Assembly: GCA_964438735.1 (NCBI GenBank)
Contig: CAYTLW010000007.1
Span: 8,594-72,593 of the forward strand
Length of the DNA stretch: 64,000 nt
Reading direction: 5' to 3'
DNA from: an uncultured Enterobacteriaceae bacterium
GTDB taxonomy: Bacteria; Myxococcota_A; UBA9042
This document shows, one piece after another, positions 4,603 through 59,331 of the stretch (position 1 is its first letter; the number at the start of each line of letters is the position of its first letter). The translations under genes were made by a program, and so were the position numbers. Under the pieces are notes generated by a model that was not told where the DNA came from, did not search any database, and worked only from the letters and a program-made list of their open reading frames with translations.

Positions 4603-4788
4603 TCCTCATCACTCGGGAGGCGCGAAAGCTACGGCAAGCCGGCCAACGCAGCAAGCAGGGAGGCGATTGTAGTCGACATCCTGGCTACGTATCTGCATAC
4701 TCCCGCGCCTCGACAGCCGGTCGGTTTGACGCCGACCCGCCAGTGCAGCCCGAACTGAACTTTGCCCGGGCCCCAACGAGGAGATCAG

Positions 4789-6114
<1,326 letters not shown>

Positions 6115-9948: not shown

Positions 9949-10754
9949 AGGGCGACCGGCCGAACTTCGAGGCGTCCCTGCTGCAGCGGGTGCTGTCGGT
10001 GCCCGGGCTCGACGTCGCCGTTGGCACCCTGGACAAGCTCCTGGACTGGGGCAGCAGCAACAGCCTGTGGATCTTTCCCATGGCCACCTCCTGCTGTGGC
10101 ATCGAGTTCATGGCCGCCGCCGCCTCGCGGGTCGATCTGGATCGCATGGGCACGATCGTGCGCGCCAGCCCCCGGCATGGCGACGTCATGGTGGTCGCGG
10201 GCACCATCACGGTGAAGATGGCCCCCCGCGTGCGCAAGCTCTGGGACCAGATGCCGGAGCCGAAGTGGTGCATCGCCATGGGCTCATGCGCCATCAGCGG
10301 CGACTTCTATCGCGACATCTACTCGGTGGTGCCCGGTATCGATACCTTCGTGCCCGTCGATGTCTATGTACCCGGCTGCCCGCCCAATCCCACCGAGTTG
10401 ATGGCCGGGCTACGAAGGCTGCAGGACAAGATCAACGCGCAGCGCGACGGCACCTGGGTAGAGCCGGAGGTCCGTCCGCCCGAAGGCCCGGGCATCCGCC
10501 CCAACATCGGAAGATTGGATGACCCATTCCGGGATCCAGCGTTGACCGACGCGCAGCTACAAGCGTCGCGAAACCTGGGCCTGAACGGCAACGAACATCG
10601 CAGCGCGGACGCCGCCCAAGGTCGCCTGGTCGACCGGGACAAGCTGCGCATCGGCACCCACGTGGCGGTGGCCGCGCGACCCGCTCCGGCAGCCACACCG
10701 TCCCCCGAACGCGAACCCGCACCCGCACCCGCACCCGATTCGGAGGTCCCATGA
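9945..10754 (+). CDS. nuoB: NADH-quinone oxidoreductase subunit B (PSST, N2 cluster) with ~100-aa Pro/Ala-rich C-terminal extension
   Basis: Cluster N2 ligands CCGIEFMAAA ... GSCAISGD ... PGCPP. GTG start overlaps the nuoA stop (GTGA at 9945-9948). Unusual C-terminal tail ...ARPAPAATPSPEREPAPAPAPDSEVP. Confidence 0.9.
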   Translation: MKGDRPNFEASLLQRVLSVPGLDVAVGTLDKLLDWGSSNSLWIFPMATSCCGIEFMAAAASRVDLDRMGTIVRASPRHGDVMVVAGTITVKMAPRVRKLWDQMPEPKWCIAMGSCAISGDFYRDIYSVVPGIDTFVPVDVYVPGCPPNPTELMAGLRRLQDKINAQRDGTWVEPEVRPPEGPGIRPNIGRLDDPFRDPALTDAQLQASRNLGLNGNEHRSADAAQGRLVDRDKLRIGTHVAVAARPAPAATPSPEREPAPAPAPDSEVP

Positions 10755-33871: not shown

Positions 33872-34022
33872 GATGTCCTCCACTGGGGGTCCGGAGTCCG
33901 TCGGGGTGTGGGGCGCGCGGCATAGCACAGGGTTGGTTGCAACGAAAGGTGGATTTGTGCGCCGGCGGGCAGAGGCGGGGTCTATTCTACCCTCGCCGCA
34001 GCCTTTGAACGGGAGCCCGACC

Positions 34023-36357: not shown

Positions 36358-39300
36358 TCAATGACCACGCACGTACATCGTCGTATTGGACCGACACGCA
36401 CAGCCGCATAACGCCCCTGGCTTGTCCTGGCAGACCGTGCCCTGGGCAGCGTTGGGGTTCTTGCCGTAGTAGGTCAGCGTCTTGTACTGCCCGCCGCCGC
36501 CGTTGGAGCAGCCCACCCCCCAATGGGGCGTCTCGCCGGAGCCCTTGCAGGTGTAGCTGCCGCCCTTGGAGCCGTTGAAATACGCGTACGAGCCCGTGAG
36601 CTGCTTGCCGCTGGACCAGCTCCACTTCAACGTGGTCTTGGGGGAGCGATACCAGCGGTTGCCATAGAGATAGAGGTACTCCTTGGTGGTATTGCCATGC
36701 AGTGACGACGCCACGTTCGGGTAGAGCTTGGTCCAGCCACCGCCGGCGACGCTCATCAAGCAGACGGCGCTGAAGGCGTCGCCGATGCCGCCGCCGTTGG
36801 GGTCGATCCAGTAGCTGCCGTTGCCCTTGGAGCTGCCGCTGTCGAGGATGTGCTTGCAGCTGAGCGCCGGGTTGGACTTGGTGCCCACCGTCTTGGGCAC
36901 GCACTTGCCGCTCTGGCACCACTTGGCGGCGCCGCAGCCCTTGCCGTTGGCGACGTTCTTGGTCGTGCAGCCCTGGCCTTTGTCGCAGCCGTTGAGCGTG
37001 CAGGGGTTGCCGTCATCGCATTTCTTGGCCGAACCCGGCTTGCAGCTGCCGCCGTTGCAGGCGTCGTTAAGGGTGCAGACGCTGCCGTCGCTGCATGGGG
37101 CGGCGTTGTTGGCGTTGATGCAGCCCTTGGACGCATCGCAGAAGTCGGTCGTGCACAGCTTGTTGTCGTTGCAGTTCTTGGCCGAGCCCGGTTTGCAGCT
37201 GCCACCGGTGCAGATGTCGTTGGTGGTGCAGGCGTTGCCGTCGCTGCAGGGCTTGGTATTGGCCTTGTGGGTACAGCCCGTAGCCGGCGCGCAGGCATCG
37301 TCGGTGCACAGCTTGCCGTCATCGCAATTCGGCGCGGCGCCCGGGGCGCATTTGCCGCCGGTACAGGTGTCCTTGAGGGTGCACTTGCTGTTGTCAGAGC
37401 AGGGCTTGGTATTGGCCGTGAACGTGCAGCCCTTGGCCTTGTCGCAGCCGTCGTCGGTGCAGAGTTCGCCGTCGCTGCAGGACTTCTTCTTGCCGGGGAT
37501 GCAGAAGCCGCCCAGGCAGCTGTCGGTCAGGGTGCAGACGTCGCCATCGCTGCACTTGGCTGAATTGGGAGCGTGCTGGCAGCCCTTGGTCTTGTCGCAG
37601 GAGTCGTCGGTGCAGACCTTGCCGTCATCGCAGACCAGCGGCGCGCCGGCCGCGCACGACTTGTCCTTGCAGGCGTCGGGTTTGGTGCAGGCGTTGCCGT
37701 CGTCGCATGGCGCCGTGTTGGCCACGTGCAGGCAGCCGTTCTTCCAGTGGCAGCCGTCGGTGGTGCAGTTGTTCTTGTCGTCGCAGACCTTGGGCCCGCC
37801 GGGCGTGCAAGCGCCGGCCTTGCAGATGTCCTTGTCGGAGCAGGTGTTGCCGTCGTTGCAGCCGGCGCTGTTGTGGGTGAAGACGCAGCCCTTGGCCTTG
37901 TCGCATGCGTCATCGGTGCACACGTTGCCGTCGGCGCAGGTCACCGGATTGCCGGGCGCGCAGGTGCCTGCTTTGCACCCATCGTTGGCGGTGCAGGCGT
38001 TGCCGTCGTCGCAGGGCAGGGCGTTGGCGGGGTGGGCGCAGCCGTTGAGGTGGTGGCAGGTGTCGTTGGTGCAAAGTTTGCCGTCGTCGCAGCTCTTCGG
38101 CTTGCCGGGCGCGCATTTGCCGGCCAGGCAGCCGTCGGACTCGGTGCAGACGCTGCCATCGCTGCACGGCGCGCCGGGTTTGGCGTGCACATGGCTGCAG
38201 CCGGTCTTGGCTTCGCATTCATCTACGGTGCAGACATTGCCGTCGTTGCAGACCAGCGCCTTGCCGGGCTGACATTTGCCAGCCGCGCAGCCGTCACCCA
38301 CGGTGCAGGCGCTGCCGTCGTCGCAGGCCGAGCTGTTGGGTGTGAAGGTGCAACCCTTGGCCGGATCGCATCCGTCGGTCGTGCACACCTGCCCATCGCT
38401 GCAGGTCACGGGTTTGGCGGCGCACTTGCCGCTGGCGCAGACGTCCTCCTTGGTGCAGGCGTTGCCGTCGTCGCAGGCGCCCGTGTTGTGCACATGGGTA
38501 CAGGCCGTCTTGGCGTCGCAGCCGTCGGTTGTACACGGGTTGCCGTCATCGCAGGACTGCTTGCCCGGCCCCTTGCATTCGGTAGCGGTGCAAGCGTCGG
38601 CCAGGGTGCAGGCGTCGCCGTCGTCGCACGCGACGCTGTTGGCCAGGTGGGTGCAGCCGGTCTTCTTGTCGCAGCTGTCGTCGGTGCAGAGGTTGTCGTC
38701 GTTGCAATCGAGGGCCGGTCCGCCCGTGCAGACACCTTTGTTGCAGATGTCCTTGGTGGTGCAGGCGTCGCCATCATCGCACGCCGGCCCGGTCTGCTCG
38801 TTGTGCACGCAGCCCTTGATCGCGTCACAGCCGTCGATCGTGCAGGTGTTGTTGTCGTCGCAGACCACCTTCGTGCCGATGCATTTGCCTTCGGTACACG
38901 CGTCGTCGGAGGTGCAGGCGTTGTTGTCATCGCAAGCGCCCGCCTGGGGCAGATGATTGCACTTGCCGGCGTTGCAGCTGTCCGCCGTGCAGACCATGTT
39001 GTCGTCGCAGACCCCCGGGTCGGCCTCGTCGGTGTTGCCGTCGCAGTCATCGTCCTGGGTGTTGCAGGTCTCGCTCACCGCAGCCGGCGCGTCGCAGGCG
39101 CCCAGGCCCTTGGCGTTGCAGGCGCGCTTGCCGGTACAGGTGCCGGCGCCATTGGTTGTGGAACAGCCGGTGACGAGTCCCAGCTCCTTGGCCCGGGCGC
39201 TGCACGGACAGGTCAGGTCGGCGCGTTGACATTGTTTGGCCTTGGCGCCACCCACGCTGACCACGTCGACGCACTGCCAGCCCTCCGGGCAGGTCACATC

Positions 39301-39846
39301 CGCGCCACAGCCGCCGCCACAGAAGGCGCCCAGGTTCTCGCCCTGCTCGCTGTAGGGCACGCAGAGGGACTTGCCGCCGCCGAGCGCGGCGCTGCAATCC
39401 GAGTCGCTCTGGCAGGGATCGCAGATGCGCGGAAAGCGCGGCACGCAGATGGACGTGGCATCGCCGGCCCCGGTGTCGACCAGCTTGCAGACGTAGTCCT
39501 CGGCGCAGTCGGTCACGCAGGTTTTGGCGCAGACCTTGCCGTCGAAGGTGTCGATGCAATAGCCCGAGTCGCACTCATCATTGCCCTTGCAGGGCTGGGC
39601 GGGCTGCTCGTCGGCGTCCGGCAGCGCGGTGCCCTGGTCGACCGGTTCGCCTGCGTCCTCATCGGCCGCATCGTTGATGACACTGTCGAAGTCCATGGTG
39701 ATGTCCGGACCCGCCGGTCCGGAGACCACGGAGTCATCGGCGGGATCCCCACAACCGGCCATGGTGCCGACGGTCATGCACAGCAGGGTGCAGAACAGAA
39801 GCATCGGGCGGGCGCCAACGGCCCGCCGGCGCGGAGTCTCGAGCAT
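36358..39846 (-). CDS. Cys-rich repeat lipoprotein (~21 Myxococcus-type cysteine-rich repeats) with C-terminal fibrinogen-related (FReD/COLFI-like) domain
   Basis: Signal peptide plus lipobox MLETPRRRAVGARPMLLFCTLLCMTVGTMAGC. Alternative ATG at 39867. G-rich Shine-Dalgarno before 39846. Repeats of CxDGNxCTxDxCxxxxGCxHxxN. C-terminus ...SCKHILDSGSSKGNGSYWIDPNGGGIGDAFSAVCLMSVAGGGWTKLY... has the hallmarks of the fibrinogen / fibrillar-collagen C-terminal fold. Confidence 0.75.
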   Translation of the reverse strand: MLETPRRRAVGARPMLLFCTLLCMTVGTMAGCGDPADDSVVSGPAGPDITMDFDSVINDAADEDAGEPVDQGTALPDADEQPAQPCKGNDECDSGYCIDTFDGKVCAKTCVTDCAEDYVCKLVDTGAGDATSICVPRFPRICDPCQSDSDCSAALGGGKSLCVPYSEQGENLGAFCGGGCGADVTCPEGWQCVDVVSVGGAKAKQCQRADLTCPCSARAKELGLVTGCSTTNGAGTCTGKRACNAKGLGACDAPAAVSETCNTQDDDCDGNTDEADPGVCDDNMVCTADSCNAGKCNHLPQAGACDDNNACTSDDACTEGKCIGTKVVCDDNNTCTIDGCDAIKGCVHNEQTGPACDDGDACTTKDICNKGVCTGGPALDCNDDNLCTDDSCDKKTGCTHLANSVACDDGDACTLADACTATECKGPGKQSCDDGNPCTTDGCDAKTACTHVHNTGACDDGNACTKEDVCASGKCAAKPVTCSDGQVCTTDGCDPAKGCTFTPNSSACDDGSACTVGDGCAAGKCQPGKALVCNDGNVCTVDECEAKTGCSHVHAKPGAPCSDGSVCTESDGCLAGKCAPGKPKSCDDGKLCTNDTCHHLNGCAHPANALPCDDGNACTANDGCKAGTCAPGNPVTCADGNVCTDDACDKAKGCVFTHNSAGCNDGNTCSDKDICKAGACTPGGPKVCDDKNNCTTDGCHWKNGCLHVANTAPCDDGNACTKPDACKDKSCAAGAPLVCDDGKVCTDDSCDKTKGCQHAPNSAKCSDGDVCTLTDSCLGGFCIPGKKKSCSDGELCTDDGCDKAKGCTFTANTKPCSDNSKCTLKDTCTGGKCAPGAAPNCDDGKLCTDDACAPATGCTHKANTKPCSDGNACTTNDICTGGSCKPGSAKNCNDNKLCTTDFCDASKGCINANNAAPCSDGSVCTLNDACNGGSCKPGSAKKCDDGNPCTLNGCDKGQGCTTKNVANGKGCGAAKWCQSGKCVPKTVGTKSNPALSCKHILDSGSSKGNGSYWIDPNGGGIGDAFSAVCLMSVAGGGWTKLYPNVASSLHGNTTKEYLYLYGNRWYRSPKTTLKWSWSSGKQLTGSYAYFNGSKGGSYTCKGSGETPHWGVGCSNGGGGQYKTLTYYGKNPNAAQGTVCQDKPGALCGCACRSNTTMYVRGH

Positions 39847-39896
39847 GATCCCCCCCTCGGTCGTCATAACAGGGTAGCGGTCTTCTGGGGGTCGGC

Positions 39897-42659
39897 TCAA
39901 GGCGCCTTGGGCACATCTTTGGCGCAACGGACTCCCAGAGCCGGATCGGTGCTCTTCTTGGGGCTGCTCTGGCGGTTGCCGGCGCGCACCTCCGCCGCCG
40001 TGCTGACCAGGCTGCCACCACGAACCACGCGGCCATCCTTGGCGGGCGCGTGGGGATCCTTCTTGGGCGACTTGCTGTACCAGTCCGCCTGGTAGCCGTC
40101 GCTGACCCACTCGCTGACGTTGCCGCCCATGTCGCGCACGCCGTAGGGACTGATGTCCTTGGCCATGGTGCCGACGCTGCGCGTGGTGCCCAGGTCGCAG
40201 CCGCCCTTGTCGACGCCGAGCATGACCGTGAAGCTGCAGTTGGCCGCCGGCTTGGCCCAGGGCCAGGTCGGGGTCAGCTTGGCGCAGTCTTTGCCCCAGA
40301 TCTCGCAGCCGCCGCGGGCGGCCTTCTCCCACTCGGCTTCGGTCAGCAGGCGCTTGCCAAAGTGCTGGCAGACGGCCACCGCCGCGTCGTGGTCGATGCA
40401 GTTCATGGGGTGCTGAGCCTTGGTCTTGTCGCCCCAGTTGCACTTGGGCAGCGGGTCCTTGGGTTTGGCGCAGTTGCCGGCGTCCACGCATTGACCGTAT
40501 TGGTCGACGGTGATCTCGAAGCGATCGATGAAGAAGGCGCTCAACTGGACCTCGTGCTGGGGTTTCTCGTCGGGTTTGCAGGCGCCATCCAGGGCGGCGT
40601 TGCAGCCCATCTGTGTCGGCCCGTCGGGCACGTAGATCATGGCCGGCGCCAGGGCCAGGCACTGGCCGTCATGGCAGATCTTGGCCGTCTCGGCCCCCGC
40701 CGTGCAGACGCTGCCGTTGACCACCGAGCCGTGGCTGCACTTGCCCTTGGGACCACAGATGTCCACCGTGCACGGGTTCTTGTCATCGCAGGCGCTGTCA
40801 ACCGCGACCAGGCCGCATTTGCCAGTGCTCGGATTGCAGGTCGTCTTCTTGCAGCCCTGGGAGGCCTCGGTGCACGCGACGGCGGACGCGGGTTTGGTCT
40901 TGCACACCGGCGGGCTCGCGGCGGTGTCGCAGTAGGGCGTGCCGTTGCAGGCGTTGCCGTCGTCGATGCAGTCCGCGTCGGCTTTGCAGGCACAGAGATC
41001 GGTGCCGCCTTTGCAGCTGCCGGCCTTGCAGATGTCACCGACGGTGCAGGGCTTGCCGTCATCGCACTTGCTCAGGTCGGCGGACTTCTTCATGGCGCAC
41101 TTGCCGGTCTTCTTGTCGCAGGTGTTCTTCTTGCACGGGCCGTCATCCTTGCCGGTGCAGACGACAACGGTGGTCGGGTTGACCAGGCAGGTGGGCGGAT
41201 TCTGCAGCTTGTCGCAGTAGAGCGTGCCGTTGCACGCGTTGCCATCCTCCTTGCTCTTGCAGTCGTCGTTGGTCTCGCAGACACAGGTATTGGTGCCCGT
41301 CAGGCAGGAGCCGAAGCCGTCGCAGGTATCGTCCACGGTGCACGGGTTGTCGTCTGCGTTGCACTGGGAGAACTTGATGGCGAATTCCGGCTTGCAGACG
41401 CCCAGCGCCGGCGCGCAGGCCATGGTCATGCAGTCGGTGGAGCCGGCCTTGGAGCAGTGAATGATCGTGCCCGGGTGGACCTTGCAGGCGCCCGCCTTCT
41501 TGTCGCAGTAGAGCGCGCCATTGCATAGATCGCCGTCGTCGAATTGCTGGCAGTCCGCGTCCTGCTTGCAGCCGCAGAGATCGGTGCCCGATTTGCAGCT
41601 GCCGTCCTCGCAGACATCGCCCTTGGTGCACACCTGGCCGTCGTCGCAGGGGGTCAGGTCGGGCTTGGCTTCGGCGGTGCATTTGCCGGACTTCTTGTCG
41701 CACAGCACGGGGGCGCAAGGATCGGCGCCGGCGCCCGGGCAGGTGACCACCGTCGCCGGGTTGATCACGCACTTCGGCTTGCCGGCGCTCAGGTCGCAGT
41801 AGAGCGTGCCGTTGCAGGTGTCGCCATCCTCTTTGCCGGCGCAGTCCGCGTCCTTGACGCAGACGCAGGTATTGGCGCCACCGACGCAACTGCCCGCCTT
41901 GCAGTGATCGCTCGCAGTGCAACCATTGCCGTCATCACAGAGCTTGGGCGGTTGGGTGTCGGCGACCGCCTTGACGAGGCATTCGCCGGTGTCCGGCTTG
42001 CACTTGACCAGCTCGCAGGCGCCGGCGCTCAGGTGGCTGCAATCGACCACCGACGCCGGATTCGTCTTGCAGTTGTAGGGCACCTCGCTGGTGTCGCAAT
42101 AGGGCTGGCCGTTGCAGACGTTCTTGTCGTCCTTGCAGTCGGCGCTGACGTGGCAGGCGCAGATGTCCGACTTCGGGTCGCCGATGCATGTGCCCTTATC
42201 GTCGCAGTTGGCGCTCTTGGTGCAGGGGTCGCCATCATCGCACTTCGACTTGGCCGGCAGCGCTTTGGCCTTGCACTGGCCCGCGGTGCAGCTCCAGACC
42301 TGGCAGCTGTCGGGCGACTCGCCGCAGTCCTTGGCCACCTTGCAGCCGCCGGTGTCGACCGGTGTCGGCGTGTCCGCTTTGACGGCGTCGCCCTGCTCAC
42401 CGTCCACCTTGTCTGCTGTATCGGCGATGTCTGGCTGCGCGCCCGTGTCGCCGATTCCATCCGACATGCTGTCGGGGGGCGTGTCGGCGTCAGCGTCGTC
42501 GCCAGTGCCATCAACCACCTTGCCGCCGTCGTTGCCCGCGAAACCGCTCTCGTCGGGGACCATGTCCCAGCACGCCGGCAGCGCCAGCGTCGCCAGCAGC
42601 AGCCCGGCCCATCGGATCCCTGCACTGTGCGCGCATCGCGGTGTCTTCATGGCGTTCAT
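39897..42659 (-). CDS. Cys-rich repeat lipoprotein with C-terminal FGE-sulfatase (SUMF1/formylglycine-generating-enzyme-like) domain
   Basis: Signal peptide plus lipobox (MNAMKTPRCAHSAGIRWAGLLLATLALPAC). ~8 larger modules (CxCxxDADCAxxEDGDxCNGTLYCD...C.xNPxTVVxC) alternating with short CDDGxxCTxxDxC repeats. C-terminal domain with FGE motifs (MIYVPDGPTQMGC..., GKRLLTEAEWEKAARGG, GGNVSEWVSDGYQADWY, VVRGGS). Start ATG overlaps the stop of the upstream gene (TGATG). Confidence 0.75.
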   Translation of the reverse strand: MNAMKTPRCAHSAGIRWAGLLLATLALPACWDMVPDESGFAGNDGGKVVDGTGDDADADTPPDSMSDGIGDTGAQPDIADTADKVDGEQGDAVKADTPTPVDTGGCKVAKDCGESPDSCQVWSCTAGQCKAKALPAKSKCDDGDPCTKSANCDDKGTCIGDPKSDICACHVSADCKDDKNVCNGQPYCDTSEVPYNCKTNPASVVDCSHLSAGACELVKCKPDTGECLVKAVADTQPPKLCDDGNGCTASDHCKAGSCVGGANTCVCVKDADCAGKEDGDTCNGTLYCDLSAGKPKCVINPATVVTCPGAGADPCAPVLCDKKSGKCTAEAKPDLTPCDDGQVCTKGDVCEDGSCKSGTDLCGCKQDADCQQFDDGDLCNGALYCDKKAGACKVHPGTIIHCSKAGSTDCMTMACAPALGVCKPEFAIKFSQCNADDNPCTVDDTCDGFGSCLTGTNTCVCETNDDCKSKEDGNACNGTLYCDKLQNPPTCLVNPTTVVVCTGKDDGPCKKNTCDKKTGKCAMKKSADLSKCDDGKPCTVGDICKAGSCKGGTDLCACKADADCIDDGNACNGTPYCDTAASPPVCKTKPASAVACTEASQGCKKTTCNPSTGKCGLVAVDSACDDKNPCTVDICGPKGKCSHGSVVNGSVCTAGAETAKICHDGQCLALAPAMIYVPDGPTQMGCNAALDGACKPDEKPQHEVQLSAFFIDRFEITVDQYGQCVDAGNCAKPKDPLPKCNWGDKTKAQHPMNCIDHDAAVAVCQHFGKRLLTEAEWEKAARGGCEIWGKDCAKLTPTWPWAKPAANCSFTVMLGVDKGGCDLGTTRSVGTMAKDISPYGVRDMGGNVSEWVSDGYQADWYSKSPKKDPHAPAKDGRVVRGGSLVSTAAEVRAGNRQSSPKKSTDPALGVRCAKDVPKAP

Positions 42660-43519
42660 CAGAACCGCACCGCCCAGACCAGCCCGCGGCCTGTCGGCAC
42701 CACGGCGCTCGAGGTCGCCGGCTGTCCGCTGAGCCACCAGATGCCTGCGCCGGCCATGACGGCGCCGACGGTCATCAGGCTGACGCCGATGGCCATGCGC
42801 GTATTGGCCGACTCCTGGCGCGCCAGGGCGTCGTCGCGATCGATGCCGACCACCTTGCCTGCGCTGTCCTTGTTGTTGAGTTGCTCTTCGAGGGCATCCG
42901 CCTGATCGAGCGCGTCGAAGGTCAGCCAGCCGCCGGCAGCTGCCGCGACCACACCGGCCCCGACGCCGCCCCAGGCCAACAGGCGCGTGGTGCCTGCGGC
43001 CGCGCGCGCTCTGGCCGCCGCGTCCGCCTTCGCCTTTCGCTCCGCCGCCAGTTTCGCCGCTGCGGCTGCCGCCGCCTTCTGCGCCGCTTTTTGTTCCGCG
43101 GCGCGTTTGGCCGCCTGTTGCGCCGCATCGGCTGCCTTCTTGCGCTCCTCTTTGGCCTGCTGCCAGCGCTTGCTGGCCTTGGCGCGCAGTGCGTGGCTGG
43201 TCGGGGCGCGTCGCAGGAAGATCTCCCAGGCCTTCTCAGCCTCTTGCCAACGCTTGGCCTTGGACTCGCAGAGGGCGGCGCTGTAGAGGTACTCGACCGT
43301 GGCCGGATCGATGGTCGCCGCCTGCCGGTAGAGCTGGCTGCACAGCCGCCACTGCTTCGCCTTGGCCTTCGACGCGGCGACATAGGAGATGGCCGCCGCC
43401 TCCTCGGCCTTGCTGACCGCCTGGCCCCAGGCGGTCGAGCACAGCAAGATGGCGCCCAGCGCACACAGGCCGGCCAGGTACCGCAAGTGGGGTCCGGCTT
43501 TCGCTGACGGGGCGTGCAT
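42659..43519 (-). CDS. Membrane protein: signal peptide, TPR-like helices, Ala/Lys/Glu-rich coiled-coil, two C-terminal TM segments
   Basis: Real start ATG 43519 (MHAPSAKAGPHLRYLAGLCALGAILLCSTAWGQA), lying inside a longer GC-artefact ORF. ~70-aa AKAE-rich segment. TM helices LLAWGGVGAGVVAAAAGGWL and IGVSLMTVGAVMAGAGIWWL. Translationally coupled to the downstream FGE-domain gene. Confidence 0.5.
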   Translation of the reverse strand: MHAPSAKAGPHLRYLAGLCALGAILLCSTAWGQAVSKAEEAAAISYVAASKAKAKQWRLCSQLYRQAATIDPATVEYLYSAALCESKAKRWQEAEKAWEIFLRRAPTSHALRAKASKRWQQAKEERKKAADAAQQAAKRAAEQKAAQKAAAAAAAKLAAERKAKADAAARARAAAGTTRLLAWGGVGAGVVAAAAGGWLTFDALDQADALEEQLNNKDSAGKVVGIDRDDALARQESANTRMAIGVSLMTVGAVMAGAGIWWLSGQPATSSAVVPTGRGLVWAVRF

Positions 43520-43583: not shown

Positions 43584-46500
43584 CTACTTGCACACCCCGG
43601 CGCTGCAGGTCTTGCCGCCGCCGCAGGGGCTGTTGTCGGCCAGGTTGCCATGCTTGCAACCGGCAGCTGCGGTGCAGGTGTCCAGGGTACAGGGATTGGC
43701 GTCGTCGCAGCCCACCGAGGGCTTGTCTGCGCAGGCACCGGAGGCCGTACACTTGGTCGTGCCCCAGGCGTCGAGGCGCTGCAGCCAGCCAGCGGCCTTG
43801 TTGCCGCTGTCAGGCCGCTTGCCCACCAGGGCCAGGCCTTCCTTGAAGAGCGCGACACCGTGGGCCACGTCTGTTCCCGAGACACCAATAGTTGCGGCGC
43901 TGCGCACGTTGCCCTGCGCGTCGATGTGGGCGAGCAAGGCGTCCATCCCACCGCCCGGGCCGGGGTTCTGGTGGCCCACCGCGAACACGCCCAGGGGCGC
44001 TGCGGGAGCCAGGGCCAGCAGCAGGTTGTCGTTCGCGCCGGTGACCTTCGCCTGCCAGAGCAGGCTGCCGGAACCATTGATGCGCCAGACGCTGCCCACC
44101 TTCTTGTTGCCGCCGGCCACGTCGTGGAAGTAGCCCGCCGCGTACACGCCGTTGTCGCCATCGGAGAGGGCCGCCAGGCAGCCGTCATTCTGCGCGCCCC
44201 CGAAGGTCTTCAGCCATGACTGAGTGCCGCTGCTGGTCACGTTGAAGACCAGGCAATCGGTGCCTCCGGCACCCTGCGTCGTATCGCCGACGACGATCCC
44301 GTTGGTGCCGTGGGTCACCACGCCGCGCGCGGCCTGGTCACCGGTGCCACCGAACGTCTTGTCGAAATCCGAATTGCCGATGTCGGAGATCCGCAGCACG
44401 TACGCGTCGTAGCCGCCGCCGCCCTTGCTGTTGGTGCGACCGACCAGCAGGTGTTTGTCGGGGGCACGCCAGGCGGCCGCGAAGGCCTCCTCATCCTTGT
44501 CCCCCTCCTTGCTCTTGTCGAAGGCGAGCGTGCCATCGGCGTTGACCTTCGCCCACCACATGGCCTTGCCTTTGGCGGCGTCCAGGTTCTTGCTGCCGAA
44601 GACCAGGTGGCCAGCCTTCGCGGCGGCGATGACACCCCAGGCCACGTCGTCCTTGGCGCCGCCCCAGGTCTTCTCCTGGGTGATGGTGCCTGCGGAGTTG
44701 ACGCGCAGCAGCCAGGCATCCGCGCCGCCGGCTCCCTTGGACGTGGTGCTGCCCACCGCCACCAGCCCGCCGCCGTCGCGGGTGACGCCATGCAGCACAT
44801 CATCGCCAGAGACGCCGTAGAGTTTGGACAGCAGCTTGTCCTGCTTGCTCGCTTGGCAGACGCCGTTGGCGAAGCAGGTGCCAGGCAACGAACAGGCGTC
44901 GCCATCGGCGCAGTCGCCGGTCGCGTCGGCGTGGCTGCACACGCCCTTGTCGCAACCATCCAGCAGGCAATCCTTGCCGTCGTCGCAATCGGACGCCGAC
45001 TTGTCGGCACAACCCGATGACACGTCGCACGTGATATGGCCCCAGGCGTCCAGGCGGGCGACATGGATCTCCTCGTTGCTGTTGCCCGGCTGCGACTTGC
45101 TGGTGGTGACCACCGCGGGCGCGCCGTCGTGGGCCAGGCTGAGATCCCAGCCCCAATCCTCGCTGGCGCCGCCGACGTACTGCGTCCAGCGCGTGGTGCC
45201 GTGCAGATCGGTCGACACCACGTAGCCGTCCTCCTTGCCCAGATCGCCGTCCTTGTACGTGCCGACGGCGAAGACATTGTCGCCGACCCCCAACCGGACA
45301 CCGCGCAGGTTGTCATCGCCGTTGCCGCCGACGGTCTTGCTCCAGCGAACGCCGCCGGCCGCGTCGACCCGCAGCAGCCAGCCATCGATGCCGCCAGCGC
45401 CGAACGACTTGGTCGCCCCTGCCAGGGCGAAGCCGCCGTCGGGGAAGCGCGCCAGGCCGTAGCCCCACTCCTGGTCGCTGCCGCCGTAGTAGCGTCGCCA
45501 GCGTTCGCGGCCATCCCGATCGGTGCGCAGCAGGATCATGTCGCGGCTCTTGGAGATGCCGGCCTCGCTCTCGCCGATGATGGCGAAGCCGTCCGGCAGG
45601 GCGACCACATCATGGGCCCGGTCGACCTTGCCGCTGTAGCCCCAGGTCCGGCTGAAGAGCTTGTTGCCGCTGTTGCTGAAGGCGACCGTCAGGCCGTCCG
45701 TGCTGCCGGTGGCGATGTAGCCGACCGCGAAGAGGGCGCCGTCATCTCGCAACGCCACCGCGTGACCCCGGCTGGTGATCTCGCCGGTGACATGACCCTT
45801 GCTCCAGATCTTGCCGCCGCTGGCGTTGACTCGCATGACCATCAGCACCGGATCCTCGTCACCCAGGCTCTCGCTGAAGCCGGTGATGGCGTAGCCGCCA
45901 TCGCTCAACTGGACCAGCCCGAAGCCGTGCTCCTGGTCCTCGCCATTGGACAGGTCCACCGCCCACTTCTGCGTGCCGGCGCGATCGAGGTGGATCAGTC
46001 GCGCATTGCCATCCTCGCCGGAGCCGCCGCCGACCAGGGTGAATCCGTCGGCCGTCGTGACGATGTCGCGTCCCCAGCGCCGACTGGAGTGCGACGAGAA
46101 GGTCGAGAAGAGGCGCGGCTTGTTCAGGGTGGCGCACTTGCCCGAGCTGCAGACGCCGCCTGCCGAGCACACATTGCCGTCCTCGCACGCGCCGGCCAGG
46201 GCCGTGTATTTGCAGCCGCCGTTGGCCTTGTCGCAGCTGTCTGCGGTGCAGCTGTTGCCATCGCTGCAGATCTTCGGCTTGCCGGATGCGCAGGCGCCGG
46301 CGCTGCAGGCGTCTCCCACCGTACAGGCGTCGCCGTCGTCGCATGAGGCCGTGTTGTTGGCGAACTGGCATCCCTTGACCACGTCGCAGCTGTCGGTCGT
46401 GCAAGCGTTCTTGTCATCGCAGGTCTTCGGTGAGTTGCCCACGCACTTGCCGCCGTTGCAGGCGTCGATCTGGGTGCACACGTTGCCGTCATCACACGCT

Positions 46501-49500
46501 TTGGTGTGGTTGGTGAAGACGCAGCCCTTGGCCTTGTCGCAGACGTCGTCGGTGCAGGTATTGCCGTCGTCGCAGGTCACCTTCTTGCCGCCGCAGGTGC
46601 CCCCGCTGCACGCATCCGAGGCGGTGCAGGCGTCGCCATCGTCGCAGGTGGCGGTGTTGTTGACCTGCTTGCAGCCGGTGGCCTTGTCGCAGCTGTCGGT
46701 GGTGCAGACATTGCCGTCGTTGCAATCGGGTGCCTTGCCGCCCACACAGTTGCCGCCGCTGCAGGTATCGGCTGTGGTGCACGCGTCGGCGTCGTCGCAG
46801 GCGGCCGTGTTGTTGACGTGCACGCAGCCTTTGGCCTTGTCACAGCTGTCGGTGGTGCAGACCTTGCCGTCGTTACAGCTGGGCGCGCCACTGCCGACGC
46901 AGGTGCCGCCCTTGCAGCCGTCGGTGGTGGTGCACCCGTCACCGTCGTCGCAGGCCGCGGTGTTGTTGACGTGCTGGCAGCCCTTGGCCGGATCGCAGGA
47001 GTCGGTGGTGCAGACCTTGCCATCGCCGCAGTTCGGCGCCGGGCCGCCCTTGCAGGCGCCGCCGGAGCAGGCGTCGTTGAGCGTGCACTTGCTGCCGTCA
47101 TCACAACTGGCGCTGTTGTTGCTGTACACGCAGCCGGCCGCCTTGCTGCACGAGTCCGTCGTGCAGCCGTTGCCGTCGTCGCAGTTGGGTGGCTTGCTGC
47201 CGGAGCACGACCCGCCGGCGCAGACATCCACGGTGGTGCACTTGCTGCCGTCGTCGCAGGGCGCGGTGTTGTTGGCGGTCACGCAGCCCTTGGCTTTGTC
47301 GCAACTATCGGTGGTGCAGACCTTGCCGTCATCACAGACCGGTGCCTGACCGCCCACGCACTTGCCAACGCTGCAGGTGTCCTTGGTCGTACAGGCGTTG
47401 CCGTCGTTGCAGGGCGAGACATTCACGGTGTTGACGCAACCGATGGCCGCCTTGCAGCTGTCGGTCGTACACGGGTTGCCATCGCTGCAATCAGCTGCCG
47501 AACCAGGATCGCAGGCGCCGCCCTTGCAGAGGTCGCCGACCGTGCACTTGCTGCCGTCTGAACAGGGGTTGCCCGTGTTCTTCGCGCTCAACTTGCACGC
47601 CCCCGTCTTGGCGATGCACACATTGACCACGCAGGTCGTGTTTTGGGACGAATCGCAGGTGACGATGGTCTTGGGATCGATCTTGCAGGCATAGGGCGCC
47701 TTGGACGTGTCGCAGATCAGGGTGCCGTTGCAGGGGTTGCCGTCTTCCTTGGCGGCGCAATCGCTGTTCTTGGTGCAGGCGCACTGGTTGGCGCCCGACT
47801 GACAGCTGCCGCCACTGCATTTGTCGCCCGACGTGCACACGTTGTTGTCGTCGCAGGTGGCCGAATTGGCCGCGTGGGTGCAGCCCTTGGCTTTGTCGCA
47901 ACCATCGTTGGTGCAGGGGTTGCCGTCGTCGCAGGAGGGGGCTCCGCTGCCGACGCAGCCGCCCGATTTGCAGGTATCGGTGAGCGTGCACTTGCTGCCG
48001 TCATCGCACGGCTTGGTATTGGCCCCGTGAGTGCAGCCCTTGACGGCGTCGCAGGCGTCGTCGGTACAGGCGTTGTTGTCGTCGCAGTTGATGGCCACGC
48101 CCTTGCAGACGCCGCCGCCGCAGGCGTCGGACTTGGTGCAGACCGTGCCGTCGTCGCACGGTTTGCCGTTGTGGCCGTGGCTGCAGGCGCCGGTCTTGAC
48201 CCCGCAGCTGTCGTCCGTGCAGGGGTTGTTGTCGTCGCATGACTTGGCCTTGCCGGCCACGCATTTGCTGGCGGCGCAGCTGTCGCCGATGGTGCACTTG
48301 TTGCCATCGTTGCAGGGCTGTTTGTTGGCCACGTGTGAACAGCCGCTCTTGATATCGCAGCCATCGTTGGTGCAGGGGTTTCCATCGTCGCACTTGACGG
48401 CCTCGCCGGGCACGCAACTACCCGCCGCGCACGCGTCCCCCGAGGTGCAGGTGTTGCCATCATCGCAGGGCGCGGTGGTCGCGACATTGCTGCAACCGAC
48501 CAGCGGCTTGCATTGATCGGTGGTGCAGGCGTTCTTGTCGTTACAGCCGAGCGCCGCGCCTGGCGCGCATTTGCCGCCCTTGCAGCCGTCGTTGGTCGTG
48601 CACTTGTCGCCGTCGTCGCATGCGCCACCGCTGGCGGTGAAGGTGCAGCCCTTGGCTTTGTCGCAGCTGTCCGCGGTGCAGACCTGGCCGTCATTGCACA
48701 ACAAGGACTTCCCAGGTTTGCAGAGGCCCAGATAACAGGTGTCGGCGGCGGTGCACACGCTGCCGTCGGCATCGCATGATTTGCCCTCGTTGCGCGGCAG
48801 CAGCTTGCACTTGCCGGTCTTGGCGTCGCAGGTATTGACCCGGCAGGTGCTGTTCTTGGCCGCCGAGCAGGTCACGATGGTCTTGAGGTCGACCACGCAG
48901 ACGAAGGGCGCCTTGGCTTTGTCGCAGCGCAAGGTGCCGTTGCAGACGTTGCCATCCTCCTTGGCCTTGCAGTCGGCGTCTTTTTCGCATCCACAGATGT
49001 TTCCGCCGGCCTGGCAGGCGCCCGCCTTGCAGGTGTCGCCCGCCGTGCAGGGGTTGCCATCATCGCACTTGGCGGTCGATGGGCTGTGCACGCAGCCCTT
49101 GAGCTTGTCGCAGGCGTCGGTGGTGCACAGCTTGCCGTCATCGCAGGAAGTGGGTTTGCCGGGCACGCATTTGCCGCCGGAGCAGGTATCGCCCACGGTG
49201 CAGGCGCTGCCGTCGCTGCAGGAGGCGCTGGCAGGGCTCTGCAGGCAGCCCTTGTCGGTGTCGCAGGTGTGCTTGGTGCACGGGTTGCCATCCTCGCATT
49301 TGACCGATGTGCCGACGCAGCCGCCCGCCTTGCAGGCATCGGACGATGTACAGGCGTTGCCGTCGTCGCAGCTGCCCGCCTGCGCCTTCGTGGAGCACTT
49401 ACCGCTGTTCTTGAGGCAGGTGTCGATCGTGCACGGGTTGCCGTCGTCGCAGACTTTGGCCTTGCCCGCCACACACTTGCCGCCGGTGCAGCCGTCCCCG

Positions 49501-52007: not shown

Positions 52008-55000
52008 TTGCACACCCCCGCCGAACACTTCTTGCCATCACCGCAGTCGCTGCCGTCGGCGTAGGTCTTCTTGACGCATCCCGTCGACGGCGTGCAGCCG
52101 CTCTTGGTGCAGGGGTTGTTATCCTCGCAAGCTGTGGCCTTGACCGCGCCGCACTTGCCGGCCGTCTTGCAGTCCGTATGGCCCCACGAGTTGATGCGCA
52201 GCAGCCAGGCGTCGCCACCGCCGGCGCCGAAGGTGTTGGTCAGCCCGGCAGCCAGCGTGTCCTCGCCCAAGGTGACGGCGGCCTTGCCCCAGTCTCTGCC
52301 CTTGCCGCCGATCCAGGCCGACCAGCGCGCTGTTCCATCGCTGCCGACGCGATACCACCACAGCGCCGAGGTGGTCGAGGCGGAGCTGTATCGTCGCTCG
52401 CCGACCATCACCCAGCCGCCGGGCATGGCCGTCAGGCCCCAGGCGGTGGTCTGGTAGCTGCCGCCGGTGCCGTAGGTCTTCTCCCAGAGCAGCTTGCCGC
52501 TGTCGTTGACGCTCGCCAGCCAGGCCTTGCGATTGCCGAAGACCACGTCGCGGCTGCCGGCCACCACCACGGCACCCTTGACAGCCGCCACCGCATGGGC
52601 GCGATCGTCGAGCTTGCCGGCACCGAAGCGCTGCGCCCAGGCGAGCTTGCCCGCGCTGCTGCTGCGTATGACGAACGCCTGCCTGCCGATGGTGAAGGAC
52701 TGGGTCCAGCCGACCGCCACCACGTCGCCCTGGCTCGTCTCCACCACGTCGTGGGCTTCGTCCTTTGCGGCGCCGCCGTACTGCAGCGACCACATGAAGG
52801 CGCCTGCCTTGCTGAAGCGCAGAACGTCGGCCTTCTCCTTCTTGCTCACCGCGGTGTGACCGGCGACCAGCAGGTCCCCGTTGGCCGCGGCATGTACCGC
52901 CTGCAAGCCGTCCTTGCCCGAACCGCCACGATAGGTCTGCCAGACCTTGCTGCCATCGGTTTTGGCCTTGTACAGCCACATATCTTCCTTGTTCTTGCCG
53001 ATCTTGGTGTCCGACTGACCGACCATCACCAACGCCCCGTCGGAGGTGGCAGCCAGGTCGTTGAAGCCGTCCTTGCCCGCTGCCGTGCCGAAGAACTTGC
53101 TCACCTTGGCGGTGCCCGTGGCTGTGGCGACGACCAGGTAGCCATCGGCATCGCCGCCGGCGGTGGAGCGGCTCGTTCCGGCCAGCGCGAACGTGCCATC
53201 AGCCAGTGCGACGACACCGCCAGCTTCGTCCAGGCCCTTGCCGCCATGGGCCACCGAGAACAGCCGACCGACACCAGAGTCGTAGCAGGCCCCCGCCTTG
53301 CATCGGCCGATGTTGCACGAGCTCACATTCGGCTGGCACGGCGTGCCCAACTGGTTGACGACCACGCAGCCCTTGGCGTTGTCGCACTTGTCGTCGGTAC
53401 AGGCGTTGCCGTCGTCGCAACTGACCGGCGCGCCGGGACTGCAGCTGCCGCCACCACAACTGTCGCCCTTGGTGCAGCTGTCGCCATCGCTGCAGCTGGT
53501 GTTGTTGTTCACATTCTGGCAGCCGACCGCCTTGTCGCAGCTGTCGTCGGTGCAGCTGTTGCCGTCATCGCAGTTGGGCGGCTTGCTACCGACACAGGAA
53601 CCCGCGTTGCAGTAGTCGGCGGTGGTGCACTTGTCGCCGTCATCGCAGTTGCTCGTATTGTTGACGTTCTTGCACCCTGAATCCGACTGGCAGCTGTCTG
53701 TGGTGCACGGATTGCCGTCGTCGCAATTCTTGGCCGGTCCGCCGGCGCATTTTCCCTTCGAGCAGACATCTTTGGTCGTGCAGACGCTACCATCGTCGCA
53801 GGCGTCGCTGTTGTTGACCGGCTTGCATCCCGTGGCGCCGTCGCAGCCATCGGTGGTGCAGGGATTGCCATCGTCGCAATTCGGCGGCTTCGAGCCGACG
53901 CACGCTCCGGCGGCACACTTGTCCACGGTCGTACATTTATCGCCGTCGTCGCAGTTCGCGGTGTTGTGGACCTGCTGGCATCCCTTCAGCTTATCGCAGC
54001 TGTCGCTGGTACAGGCATCGCCATCGTCGCAATTGGGAGCGCTCGCACCCACGCACTTGCCAGCGGCACATTTGTCTACCGTGGTGCACTTGCTGCCGTC
54101 GTCGCAGCCCAGCGAATTGGCGGGGTGGGTGCAGCCGGTCGACACATTGCAGCCGTCGGTGGTGCACGGGTTGCCATCATCGCAGTTCGGCGGCTTGCTG
54201 CCGCTGCATGAACCGCCCTTGCAGGCGTCGACCGTGGTGCACTTGCTGCCGTCGTCACACGACGCGCTGTTATTGGCGTGCGTACATCCGGAGACCTTGG
54301 CGCAGGCGTCCGACGTGCACGGATTGCCGTCATTGCAATCGGGCGGGGTGCTGCCCTTGCAGGCGCCGCCTTTGCACGTGTCGACTGTGGTGCACTTGTC
54401 GCCGTCGTCGCAACCCGCGCTGTTGGCCACGTGCTTGCAGCCCGTCGCTGGCGAACAGCTGTCATCGGTGCACGGCTTGGCGTCGTTGCAGTCGACCTTG
54501 GCGCCAGGCTGGCAGCTCTTGCTGGCGCATTTATCATTCGCCGTGCACTTGCTGCCGTCGTCACAAGGCGAGGTGTTGGCGACGTGCGTGCAGCCGCTGA
54601 GCTTGTTGCAGCCATCGTTGGTGCAGGGGTTGCCATCATCACACGACAAGGCGCTGCCCTTGATGCAGGCGCCCGAGGCGCACGCGTCCTTGACGGTGCA
54701 GACGCTGCCGTCGGCGTCGCAGGGTCCGCCTTCATTGCGCGGCGTCAGGGCGCACTTGCCGGTCTTGGTGGCACATACGTTGTGCTTGCAAGCCGTATCG
54801 CCGCTACTGGAGCAGGTGATGACGGTCTTCGGGTCGACCTTGCACGCATAGGGCGGCTTGGACGTGTCGCAATACAACGTGCCGTTGCAGACATTGCCGT
54901 CCTCGGACGCTGCGCAATCGGCGTTCTTGATGCACGCGCAGGTGTTCGTGCCCGGCTTGCAGACGCCGTTGACGCAGGCGTCCGGCGTGGTGCAGGGATC

Positions 55001-59197: not shown

Positions 59198-59331
59198 CAG
59201 CCCATAGCCCCAACACGCCAGAGTCGGTCCGATCAACCTACTCTCCGCCCGAACCGGCAGCAATTTTTCGCGCGCGAGCGCTCGACCGCTGTTCACTGGA
59301 CCAGGGGCGCACCCTGAGCGATTCTCCCGGC

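What the first reader, a model, noticed from the sequence alone, without database searches (positions are those of the whole stretch)
36358..39846. Bacterial lipoprotein ending in a fibrinogen-related / fibrillar-collagen-C-propeptide-like domain
The last ~170 aa (SCKHILDSGSSKGNGSYWIDPNGGG..DAFSAVCLM...GGGWTKLY...) carry the diagnostic C...YWIDPN...VYCDM...GGGWT pattern of FReD/COLFI domains. In animals these domains mediate trimerisation and carbohydrate recognition. The protein also contains a possible LDL-receptor-class-A-like acidic motif (CNTQDDDCDGNTDEADPGVC). FReDs are rare in bacteria and here one is anchored to a cysteine-repeat stalk.
Basis: partly seen in the sequence, partly recalled or inferred. 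Interest (0 to 1): 0.6.

Follow-up and report, generated by a model that had tools for sequence, protein, structure and literature searches.

The report
Stalked bacterial lipoprotein with fibrinogen-like head
A large bacterial surface protein carries, at the tip of a long cysteine-knotted stalk, a small module truly related to the first part of animal fibrinogen/collagen-propeptide domains, but the rest of that tip is a different, uncharacterised module, so it is not a complete animal-type lectin domain.

Summary
The ORF, the motif and the architecture are real. The gene is window 36358-39846 (-), 1162 aa. It has a signal peptide with a lipobox, an acidic linker, a Cys-rich N-region, 27 Dicty_CTDC-type repeats and a 170-aa C-terminal globule.

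The C-terminal signature is significant: COLFI 40 bits (E 3e-10) and NCBIfam GGGWT_bact 45 bits. However, every sequence match to FReD, COLFI or intelectin stops after about 60 residues, the FReD A-subdomain / COLFI base.

The head keeps the intrachain disulfide and the three Ca2+-ligand side chains of the COLFI base. It lacks the interchain cysteines and the coiled coil needed for trimers.

The remaining ~125 aa ("body") is a conserved, aromatic-rich, basic β-module. It has no Pfam or NCBIfam model and no PDB sequence or Foldseek relative. It also occurs without a head, in tandem, in other bacteria.

The same head is joined to genuine near-complete FReD and COLFI bodies in other bacterial MAGs, so canonical bodies are detectable when present.

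The "LDL-A" motif is not LDL-A. It gives only a sub-threshold MopE-type match.

Most likely function (inferred): a monomeric ligand-binding tip displayed on a surface stalk. It is a variant of an already catalogued bacterial family.

The parts
36358..39846 (-). Complete CDS, 1162 aa plus stop codon
   Evidence: ORF and translation. GC3 is 0.82. The upstream gene stops at 39897.
39850..39858 (-). Shine-Dalgarno-like GAGGGGGGG, 4 nt upstream of the ATG
   Evidence: Read directly from the sequence.
39751..39846 (-). Signal peptide with lipobox (residues 1-32; RRR n-region, hydrophobic core, TMAG|C with Cys32)
   Evidence: Pattern match LCMTVGTMAGC at residues 22-32. No dedicated predictor was available.
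39595..39750 (-). Acidic, Cys-free linker (residues 33-84; 15 D+E, 0 K+R)
   Evidence: Composition.
39010..39594 (-). N-terminal Cys-rich region (residues 85-279, 25 Cys) with no family assignment
   Evidence: No Pfam or NCBIfam hit at E <= 10 other than noise. It aligns from residue 22 onward with the ortholog in L010 at 45% identity.
39007..39066 (-). CNTQDDDCDGNTDEADPGVC motif (residues 261-280): not LDL-A; weakly MopE-type putative metal-binding motif
   Evidence: Cu-binding_MopE E 0.023, 15.4 bits, below the cut-off of 27. No Ldl_recept_a hit.
36937..39009 (-). Stalk: 27 Dicty_CTDC-type four-Cys repeats (residues 280-970) in two alternating sub-types, giving a 51-aa super-repeat
   Evidence: Dicty_CTDC 161.2 bits, E 4.3e-48. 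27 regex units spaced 24-28 aa. 153-nt DNA period.
36730..36888 (-). Head (residues 987-1039). It is homologous to the FReD A-subdomain, the COLFI base and the intelectin N-terminal part. It has Cys997-Cys1029, a WIDPNGGGIGDA loop and a GGGWT strand.
   Evidence: COLFI 23-85/233. GGGWT_bact 1-44/46. Profile hits to PDB sequences are confined to profile positions 5-66. Mapping onto procollagen I base residues C41/C73/D59/N61/D67.
36361..36729 (-). Body (residues 1040-1162). It is an all-beta, aromatic-rich (18 W/Y/F), basic (14 K+R against 3 D+E) module. Conserved motifs are YLY, WYRSP, WxW, GVGCSNGGG and CQDxP, with four family-conserved Cys.
   Evidence: Alignments A1 and A2. AF2 pLDDT 96.2 when modelled alone. 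No PDB sequence hit. No Foldseek hit. Head-less tandem copies occur in P0006, P0010 and P0051.
39897..42737 (-). Context: upstream neighbour 50 nt away, a Cys-rich repeat protein ending in an FGE-sulfatase domain
   Evidence: PF03781 E 1.3e-40.
43584..59296 (-). Context: two further giant Dicty_CTDC lipoprotein genes (43584-52028, 2814 aa; 52004-59296, 2430 aa) with different C-terminal regions
   Evidence: Dicty_CTDC E 8e-43 and 1e-51. Lipobox patterns.

Best explanation
The gene encodes a secreted, probably lipid-anchored cell-surface protein of a Myxococcota-like bacterium.

Architecture:
- A Cys32 lipid anchor and an acidic linker.
- A Cys-rich N-region.
- A long rod of 27 disulfide-knotted Dicty_CTDC repeats.
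- A 170-aa globular tip at the far end of the rod.

The tip is a two-part composite.
1. A head of about 50 aa is homologous to the A-subdomain of fibrinogen-related domains, which is equivalent to the 'base' of fibrillar-collagen C-propeptides and the N-terminal part of intelectins. It belongs to NCBIfam GGGWT_bact. It keeps the intrachain disulfide and, in this protein, the Asp-Asn-Asp side chains that bind Ca2+ in the collagen propeptide.
2. A beta-rich body of about 125 aa is aromatic and basic. It forms a sequence family of its own, is not the canonical FReD B+P part or the COLFI petal by any test available here, and can exist without the head.

Proposed function (inferred, not shown): the tip is a monomeric ligand-binding module, most plausibly for a glycan or another polyanionic surface polymer. 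The stalk holds it away from the cell for adhesion or recognition of prey, kin or matrix. The neighbouring genes use the same stalk to display other tips.
For: Architecture is shown.

Head homology:
- COLFI 40.1 bits, GGGWT_bact 45.3 bits, PDB profile hits at E 2.6e-8 to 3e-5 limited to profile positions 5-66.
- 30 of 47 family members hit Fibrinogen_C and 25 of 47 hit COLFI, head only.
- C15-C47 has the same 32-residue spacing as procollagen I C41-C73. D59, N61 and D67 are conserved as D, N and D (alignment; residue roles from PMC5353611; column counts).

Body distinct:
- No Pfam or NCBIfam hit.
- No PDB sequence hit with the A2 profile.
- The confident body model (pLDDT 96.2) has no Foldseek match.
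- hhalign to bacterial full FReD and COLFI bodies aligns only 9-19 columns.
- Head-less tandem bodies exist, e.g. in Polaromonas CDS53175.1.

Positive controls: the same head precedes a near-complete Fibrinogen_C (4-183/221, E 2.3e-16) in Myxococcales MAG L003 and a near-complete COLFI (20-225/233, E 1.7e-21) in Saprospiraceae MAG L001.

Binding or sensor role:
- The head+body domain is C-terminal in 55 of 85 cases.
- It is attached to VWD, CBM96, TSP_3 and Dicty_CTDC modules, and it lies after the TM segment of a Ser/Thr kinase.
- The body has 14% aromatic residues and a net basic charge.

Conservation: an ortholog in another assembly keeps the tip at 64-78% identity but the stalk at only 45%.
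Against: - No ligand, localisation or oligomeric state was tested. The binding function rests on architecture and domain partners only.
- The Ca2+-ligand triad is not conserved across the family: D41 is present in only 8 of 47 sequences.
- Lipoprotein status is a pattern match only.
Confidence: 0.6

Rival explanations
1. The tip is a genuine but strongly diverged and shortened fibrinogen-related or COLFI domain that acts as an animal-style Ca2+-dependent lectin.
For: - Head homology is significant.
- All top Foldseek PDB hits for the whole domain are FReD, COLFI or intelectin, with probability up to 1.0 for local alignments of about 112 columns.
- The cyanophage COLFI-annotated model gives TMq 0.56.
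- The Ca2+-ligand triad of the COLFI base is retained.
- Complete FReDs sit on Cys-rich lipoprotein stalks in other Myxococcota (L003).
Against: - The HMM matches stop at COLFI position 85/233. Fibrinogen_C is not reported for this protein at E <= 10.
- There is no P-subdomain signature, although that part is matched in the L003 control, whose Fibrinogen_C hit extends to profile position 183/221.
- The domain is about 50 aa shorter than a FReD.
- TM is below 0.5 to every solved FReD or COLFI.
- The body alone finds nothing.
- The body occurs head-less in tandem.
Confidence: 0.22
2. The C-terminal module is a catalytic or toxic cargo (polymorphic-toxin style, or a hydrolase) delivered or displayed on the stalk.
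For: - It is a C-terminal variable module on a repeat stalk.
- Paralogous neighbours carry an enzyme-like tip, FGE-sulfatase.
- The body has invariant polar residues: E123, K140 and Q158, with D159 nearly invariant.
Against: - There is no downstream same-strand immunity-like gene; the next gene is convergent.
- The module occurs as tandem arrays and as the extracytoplasmic part of a Ser/Thr kinase, which fits binding or sensing better than catalysis.
- No match to any enzyme or toxin family in Pfam or NCBIfam.
Confidence: 0.08
3. The protein is a purely structural component of an extracellular matrix or surface layer, with the tip mediating self-association rather than recognition of foreign ligands.
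For: - Four consecutive giant Cys-rich repeat genes lie in the locus.
- Partner domains include VWD and TSP_3, which are typical of matrix proteins.
- The head is related to a domain that nucleates collagen assembly.
Against: - The interchain cysteines and coiled coil used for COLFI assembly are absent.
- The lipobox points to anchorage rather than release.
- No test of self-association was possible.
Confidence: 0.1

Closest known systems
NCBIfam NF040941 GGGWT_bact ('fibrinogen-like YCDxxxxGGGW domain-containing protein')
   Same: The head matches the 46-position model end to end (1-44/46) at 45.3 bits, above the cut-off of 30. The family is bacterial and extracytoplasmic.
   Different: The model describes only the head. 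The 125-aa body that follows here is not covered by any NCBIfam or Pfam model. NCBI names head+body relatives after other domains, e.g. 'DNRLRE domain-containing protein' in Minicystis.
Fibrillar collagen C-propeptide (COLFI, PF01410; structures 5k31, 4ae2)
   Same: This is the best Pfam hit. The base region is shared: the intrachain disulfide C41-C73, the YWIDPN..DA loop and the Ca2+ ligands D59/N61/D67.
   Different: There is no preceding collagen triple helix and no coiled-coil stalk. The interchain Cys47/Cys64 are absent. The petal (residues 77-246) is not matched. A trimer is therefore not expected.
Fibrinogen-related domains (FReD, PF00147: ficolins, angiopoietins, tenascins, tachylectin 5A) and intelectins/X-type lectins
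   Same: The A-subdomain and the first B strand are shared (C...G.Y.I.P....CDM...GGGWT). Profile E-values are 2.6e-8 (XEEL) to 1e-5. Foldseek local alignments give about 3 A rmsd over about 112 columns.
   Different: The P-subdomain is not detected, either by the Fibrinogen_C HMM or as its sequence motif. The domain is about 170 aa instead of about 220. TM is 0.31-0.46. The Fibrinogen_C HMM is not reported for this protein at E <= 10.
Myxococcus xanthus TraA-type surface receptors (own knowledge: PA14-like variable head, Cys-rich repeats, MYXO-CTERM anchor)
   Same: The design principle is shared: a recognition module held on a cysteine-rich repeat stalk at the surface of a myxobacterium.
   Different: The polarity is opposite (N-terminal lipid anchor and C-terminal head here). 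The head fold and the repeat type both differ. There is no sequence relationship and no test was done here. This is an analogy only.

Membership tests
NCBIfam NF040941 GGGWT_bact | HMM score above the curated cut-off (30 bits) | tested here: met
   45.3 bits, E 6.5e-12, profile 1-44/46.
COLFI (PF01410) | HMM score above the gathering threshold | tested here: met
   40.1 bits against 26.2, but only profile positions 23-85 of 233.
COLFI (PF01410) | Base region: intrachain disulfide C41-C73 and Ca2+ ligands D59/N61/D67 | tested here: met
   The alignment to 5k31 has the same 32-residue Cys spacing, with D, N and D conserved. Residue roles are from PMC5353611. Metal binding itself was not tested.
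COLFI (PF01410) | Trimerisation apparatus: N-terminal coiled-coil stalk and interchain Cys47-Cys64 | tested here: not met
   The equivalent positions are Ser and Gly and are never Cys in the 47-member family. The domain is preceded by Cys repeats, not a coiled coil.
COLFI (PF01410) | Petal region (residues 77-246) with the chain-recognition sequence | tested here: not met
   The HMM alignment ends at profile position 85. The body profile has no PDB hit. The body model has no COLFI hit. hhalign to a bacterial full COLFI aligns 9 columns.
FReD (Fibrinogen_C, PF00147) | HMM score above the gathering threshold | tested here: not met
   Not reported at E <= 10 for this protein. Relatives match only profile positions 4-49 of 221.
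FReD (Fibrinogen_C, PF00147) | A-subdomain with disulfide and GGGWT strand | tested here: met
   Profile hits to fibrinogen, angiopoietin, ficolin and tenascin at E 1e-7 to 3e-5 over positions 7-66.
FReD (Fibrinogen_C, PF00147) | P-subdomain (Ca2+ site and ligand pocket; DxDxD...NC...GG(W/F)W..C motif, recalled from own knowledge) | tested here: not met
   No such motif is present in residues 1040-1162. The positive control L003 contains DNDND...NC...GGFWY..C and matches Fibrinogen_C 4-183/221.
FReD (Fibrinogen_C, PF00147) | Overall fold match (TM > 0.5) to solved FReDs | tested here: inconclusive
LDL-receptor class A (PF00057) | HMM match / six-Cys ~40-aa module with a DCxDGSDE calcium cage | tested here: not met
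   No Ldl_recept_a hit at E <= 10 or when the motif was scanned alone. There is only a sub-threshold Cu-binding_MopE match at 15.4 bits.
Dicty_CTDC repeat (PF00526) | HMM score above the gathering threshold, in repeated copies | tested here: met
   161.2 bits, 14 stretches by HMM and 27 by pattern.
Bacterial lipoprotein | Signal peptide ending in a lipobox Cys | tested here: met
   LCMTVGTMAG|C at residues 22-32 fits the PROSITE-type pattern, recalled from memory. No dedicated predictor or experiment was available.

The most novel reading that the evidence does not exclude
The ~125-aa body may be a previously undescribed fold and ligand-binding module. The GGGWT head may be a mobile bacterial adapter that is combined with at least four or five unrelated bodies: this one, canonical FReD, canonical COLFI, and others seen in L002, L004, L005 and P0004. 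If so, the animal FReD, intelectin and collagen C-propeptide domains could have been assembled from, or exchanged with, a bacterial head-plus-body toolkit rather than being metazoan inventions.
Probability: 0.2. Interest if true: 0.65.

Novelty: new variant of a known kind. Interest (0 to 1): 0.4.

Why it matters
FReD, intelectin and collagen C-propeptide domains are usually treated as animal innovations for innate immunity and matrix assembly. This locus and its relatives show three things:
- The N-terminal head of these domains is abundant in bacteria, especially Myxococcota.
- It is fused there to several different bodies, including complete FReD and COLFI versions.
- In a large sub-family it is fused to an unannotated, confidently foldable module.

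This gives a concrete starting point for asking where these animal domains came from. It also offers a tractable recombinant target (180 aa, three predicted disulfides) for finding what predatory bacteria recognise with them. For annotation, the practical message is that a COLFI or Fibrinogen_C hit covering only the first 50-60 profile positions should not be read as a lectin or trimerisation domain.

Tried and rejected
- Scanning the full-length protein against Pfam and NCBIfam gave only Dicty_CTDC. The tip had to be scanned alone.
- The word-indexed homology search found only 3-7 relatives. The exhaustive representative search was needed.
With the single protein it found only head-level relatives in GTDB genomes and no source genome.
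- Exact-product look-ups with three alternative starts found no record of this gene. The window's AdoHcyase is on a JGI metagenome contig.
- tblastn against phage genomes gave no match, despite a structural match to a cyanophage model.
- The promoter and terminator scan was uninformative.
- Five literature searches found no paper on bacterial FReD, COLFI or GGGWT domains in the open-access library. A sixth, on Dicty_CTDC and Myxococcota, gave only an incidental mention.
- The LDL-A reading was rejected.
- A polymorphic-toxin reading was considered and set aside: there is no immunity-like gene downstream, and relatives have sensor or tandem architectures.
Full report
**1. Observation**

The minus-strand ORF ending at 36358 is real. 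Its start at 39846 is preceded by GAGGGGGGG 4 nt upstream and lies 50 nt after the stop of the upstream gene. GC3 is 0.82, as expected for coding sequence in a window of about 66% GC.

The product is 1162 aa with 147 Cys. Its parts are:
- a basic n-region, a hydrophobic core and a lipobox (LCMTVGTMAG|C, Cys32);
- a 52-aa acidic linker;
- a 195-aa Cys-rich region with no family assignment;
- 27 CxDxxxC[TS] units spaced 24-28 aa apart, recognised by Pfam as Dicty_CTDC (161 bits), with a DNA period of 153 nt;
- a C-terminal domain of about 170-180 aa carrying the quoted SCKHIL...YWIDPNGGG...DAFSAVCLM...GGGWT string.

**2. Is the FReD/COLFI signature more than chance?**

Yes. Scanned alone, the last 192 aa hit several models:
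- COLFI at 40.1 bits (E 3.2e-10; cut-off 26.2).
- NCBIfam NF040941 GGGWT_bact at 45.3 bits (cut-off 30).
- Procollagen I C-propeptide at E 8.6e-5 by phmmer.

A profile of 47 family members (A1) hits intelectin/XEEL (E 2.6e-8), fibrinogen beta and gamma, angiopoietins, tenascins, MFAP4, FIBCD1, ficolins, tachylectin 5A and COLFI (down to about 3e-5). Thirty of 47 members hit Fibrinogen_C and 25 of 47 hit COLFI.

All of these alignments are confined to the first 60 or so positions. The extents are COLFI 23-85/233, Fibrinogen_C 4-49/221 and PDB profile positions 5-66, with the gamma chain reaching position 90.

**3. Anatomy of the tip**

An AlphaFold2 model built on A1 is very confident (pLDDT 96.3, pTM 0.91). 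Foldseek against the PDB returns only FReDs, COLFI trimers and an intelectin at the top. The scores are weak, however: E about 1e-2 and TM 0.31-0.46. The good superpositions are local, about 112 columns at 3-4.5 A.

I then split the domain at the GGGWT strand. The body (residues 52-180 of the domain) gave these results:
- The model is equally confident on its own (pLDDT 96.2), yet Foldseek finds nothing (best E 0.48, probability 0.04, TM <= 0.30).
- Its profile (A2) finds no PDB sequence.
- hhalign against the bodies of two bacterial proteins with near-complete FReD or COLFI domains aligns only the GGGWT strand, 9-19 columns.

The body is strongly conserved: YLY, WYRSP, WxW, GVGCSNGGG, CQDxP and four conserved Cys. 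It is aromatic-rich and basic. It also occurs without any head as tandem copies in other proteins (P0006, P0010, P0051). One of these is a 'hypothetical protein' of Polaromonas sp. CG9_12.

**4. The head is reused with other bodies**

The exhaustive search found 1760 50%-identity representatives at E <= 1e-3 and 296 at E <= 1e-10. Among the best 152:
- 82 carry head plus this body;
- 48 carry only the head, often repeated every 200-250 aa with other bodies;
- 18 carry only the body.

In GTDB genomes the head turns up mostly in Myxococcota MAGs, and also in a Saprospiraceae and a Marinamargulisbacteria MAG.

Two of these loci serve as positive controls.
- Myxococcales MAG L003 encodes a lipoprotein with CDDGN-type Cys repeats. 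It ends in a near-complete FReD (Fibrinogen_C 4-183/221, E 2.3e-16), including the DNDND and GGFWY..C P-subdomain motifs.
- Saprospiraceae MAG L001 encodes a near-complete COLFI (20-225/233, E 1.7e-21).

Both are documented. Canonical bodies are therefore detectable in bacteria when they are present. They are not present here.

**5. What the head retains and lacks**

I mapped the phmmer alignment onto the procollagen I numbering of PMC5353611.
- Our Cys997 and Cys1029 correspond to the intrachain pair C41-C73, with identical spacing.
- The WIDPNGGGIGDA loop keeps D59, N61 and D67. D67 is stated to coordinate Ca2+. The roles of D59 and N61 are from my own recollection of the CPIII structure paper.
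- The interchain cysteines C47 and C64 are Ser and Gly here. They are never Cys in the family.
- There is no coiled coil upstream.

Trimerisation as in collagen, or through collagen or coiled-coil stems as in ficolins, is therefore not expected. The Ca2+ triad is a sub-family feature, not a family-wide one.

**6. The 'LDL-A-like' motif**

CNTQDDDCDGNTDE gives no Ldl_recept_a match. It gives only a sub-threshold match to the MopE-type 'putative metal-binding motif' (E 0.023, 15.4 bits against a cut-off of 27).

**7. Context**

The window is chromosomal. It carries AdoHcyase, an aminotransferase, three Proton_antipo_M (complex I/Mrp-type) membrane subunits, a sigma54 activator, a molybdopterin oxidoreductase and a Ser/Thr kinase.

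The gene is the last of four consecutive minus-strand genes for giant Cys-rich repeat proteins with different C-terminal regions. The immediate upstream one ends in an FGE-sulfatase domain. Nearby genes carry Somatomedin_B and P_proprotein domains.

An ortholog exists in an ENA assembly (L010) and in representative P0005. In L010 the C-terminal 304 aa are 64% identical (P0001, the tip-containing product called there, is 78% identical to the tip), while the alignment from residue 22 through the stalk is only 45% identical. In L010 the gene is split by a frameshift.

**8. Mechanism (inferred)**

Relatives attach the head+body domain to several partners:
- VWD, CBM96 and TSP_3 modules;
- Dicty_CTDC stalks;
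- the extracytoplasmic side of a membrane Ser/Thr kinase.

The domain is usually C-terminal.

These points fit a ligand-binding or sensor module. Here the module would be displayed at the end of a rigid, disulfide-stapled stalk that is anchored by a lipid. The aromatic, basic body suggests a glycan or polyanionic ligand. None of this was tested.

**9. Verdict**

The protein belongs to an already catalogued bacterial family, GGGWT_bact. It fails the membership tests for a complete FReD or COLFI domain.

Its body is an unannotated module with no recognisable solved relative by the tools available. Whether it is a new fold or an extreme FReD/COLFI divergence remains open. The TM of 0.56 to a cyanophage COLFI-annotated model keeps the second possibility alive.

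Noticed in passing
window 39897-42737 (-): The upstream neighbour is a Cys-rich repeat protein ending in an FGE-sulfatase (SUMF1-like) domain (E 1.3e-40). It is an enzyme-like tip on the same kind of stalk. Its N-terminus (LALPAC) does not fit the strict lipobox pattern.
   Followed up: partly
window 43584-52028 (-) and 52004-59296 (-): Two giant proteins (2814 and 2430 aa) have lipoboxes and two kinds of Cys repeats: ~95-aa units and Dicty_CTDC. Each has a Cys-poor C-terminal repeat region with no Pfam match. The two ORFs overlap by 25 nt.
   Followed up: partly
window 31904-34105 (-): This protein has two Somatomedin_B domains (E 2.9e-16), unusual for a bacterium. Its C-terminal region has H..D.D and HHHHLH motifs reminiscent of LAS/MepA-type metallopeptidases. 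This was not tested.
   Followed up: no
window 33768-36323 (+): The convergent downstream gene carries a proprotein-convertase P-domain (E 5.8e-8) followed by Cys-containing C-terminal repeats.
   Followed up: no
window 36821-38272 (+), 37573-40095 (+); L010 7749-8678 (-), 9139-9699 (-): The antisense strand of the Cys-repeat stalk carries long, high-GC3 ORFs. In the public ortholog contig, such antisense ORFs were called as genes, and the real gene is split by a frameshift near L010 9800-9900.
   Followed up: partly
L001 (Saprospiraceae MAG JANTGI010000032.1), ORF around 10001-10165: A 460-aa bacterial protein has a near-complete fibrillar-collagen C-propeptide domain (COLFI 20-225/233, E 1.7e-21) but no Gly-X-Y collagen repeats upstream.
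   Followed up: partly
L003 (Myxococcales MAG NZRT01000086.1): At least four ORFs of 840-990 aa each carry a GGGWT head near the C-terminus. One of them has a lipobox, CDDGN-type Cys repeats and a near-complete FReD with P-subdomain motifs.
   Followed up: partly
P0004 (4522 aa), P0007, P0022 and others: Some metagenomic proteins repeat the GGGWT head 9-15 times at a period of about 200-250 aa. Each head is followed by a different, unannotated body.
   Followed up: no
P0020 (702 aa, JGI): A Ser/Thr protein kinase has one TM segment and the head+body domain as its extracytoplasmic C-terminus. This implies a sensor role for the module.
   Followed up: partly
window 4762-6114 (+): An AdoHcyase protein identical to the one in the window is recorded on JGI metagenome 3300009008, contig Ga0115649_1010311. 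The window therefore probably derives from an environmental assembly. No near-identical genome exists in the GTDB species set.
   Followed up: partly
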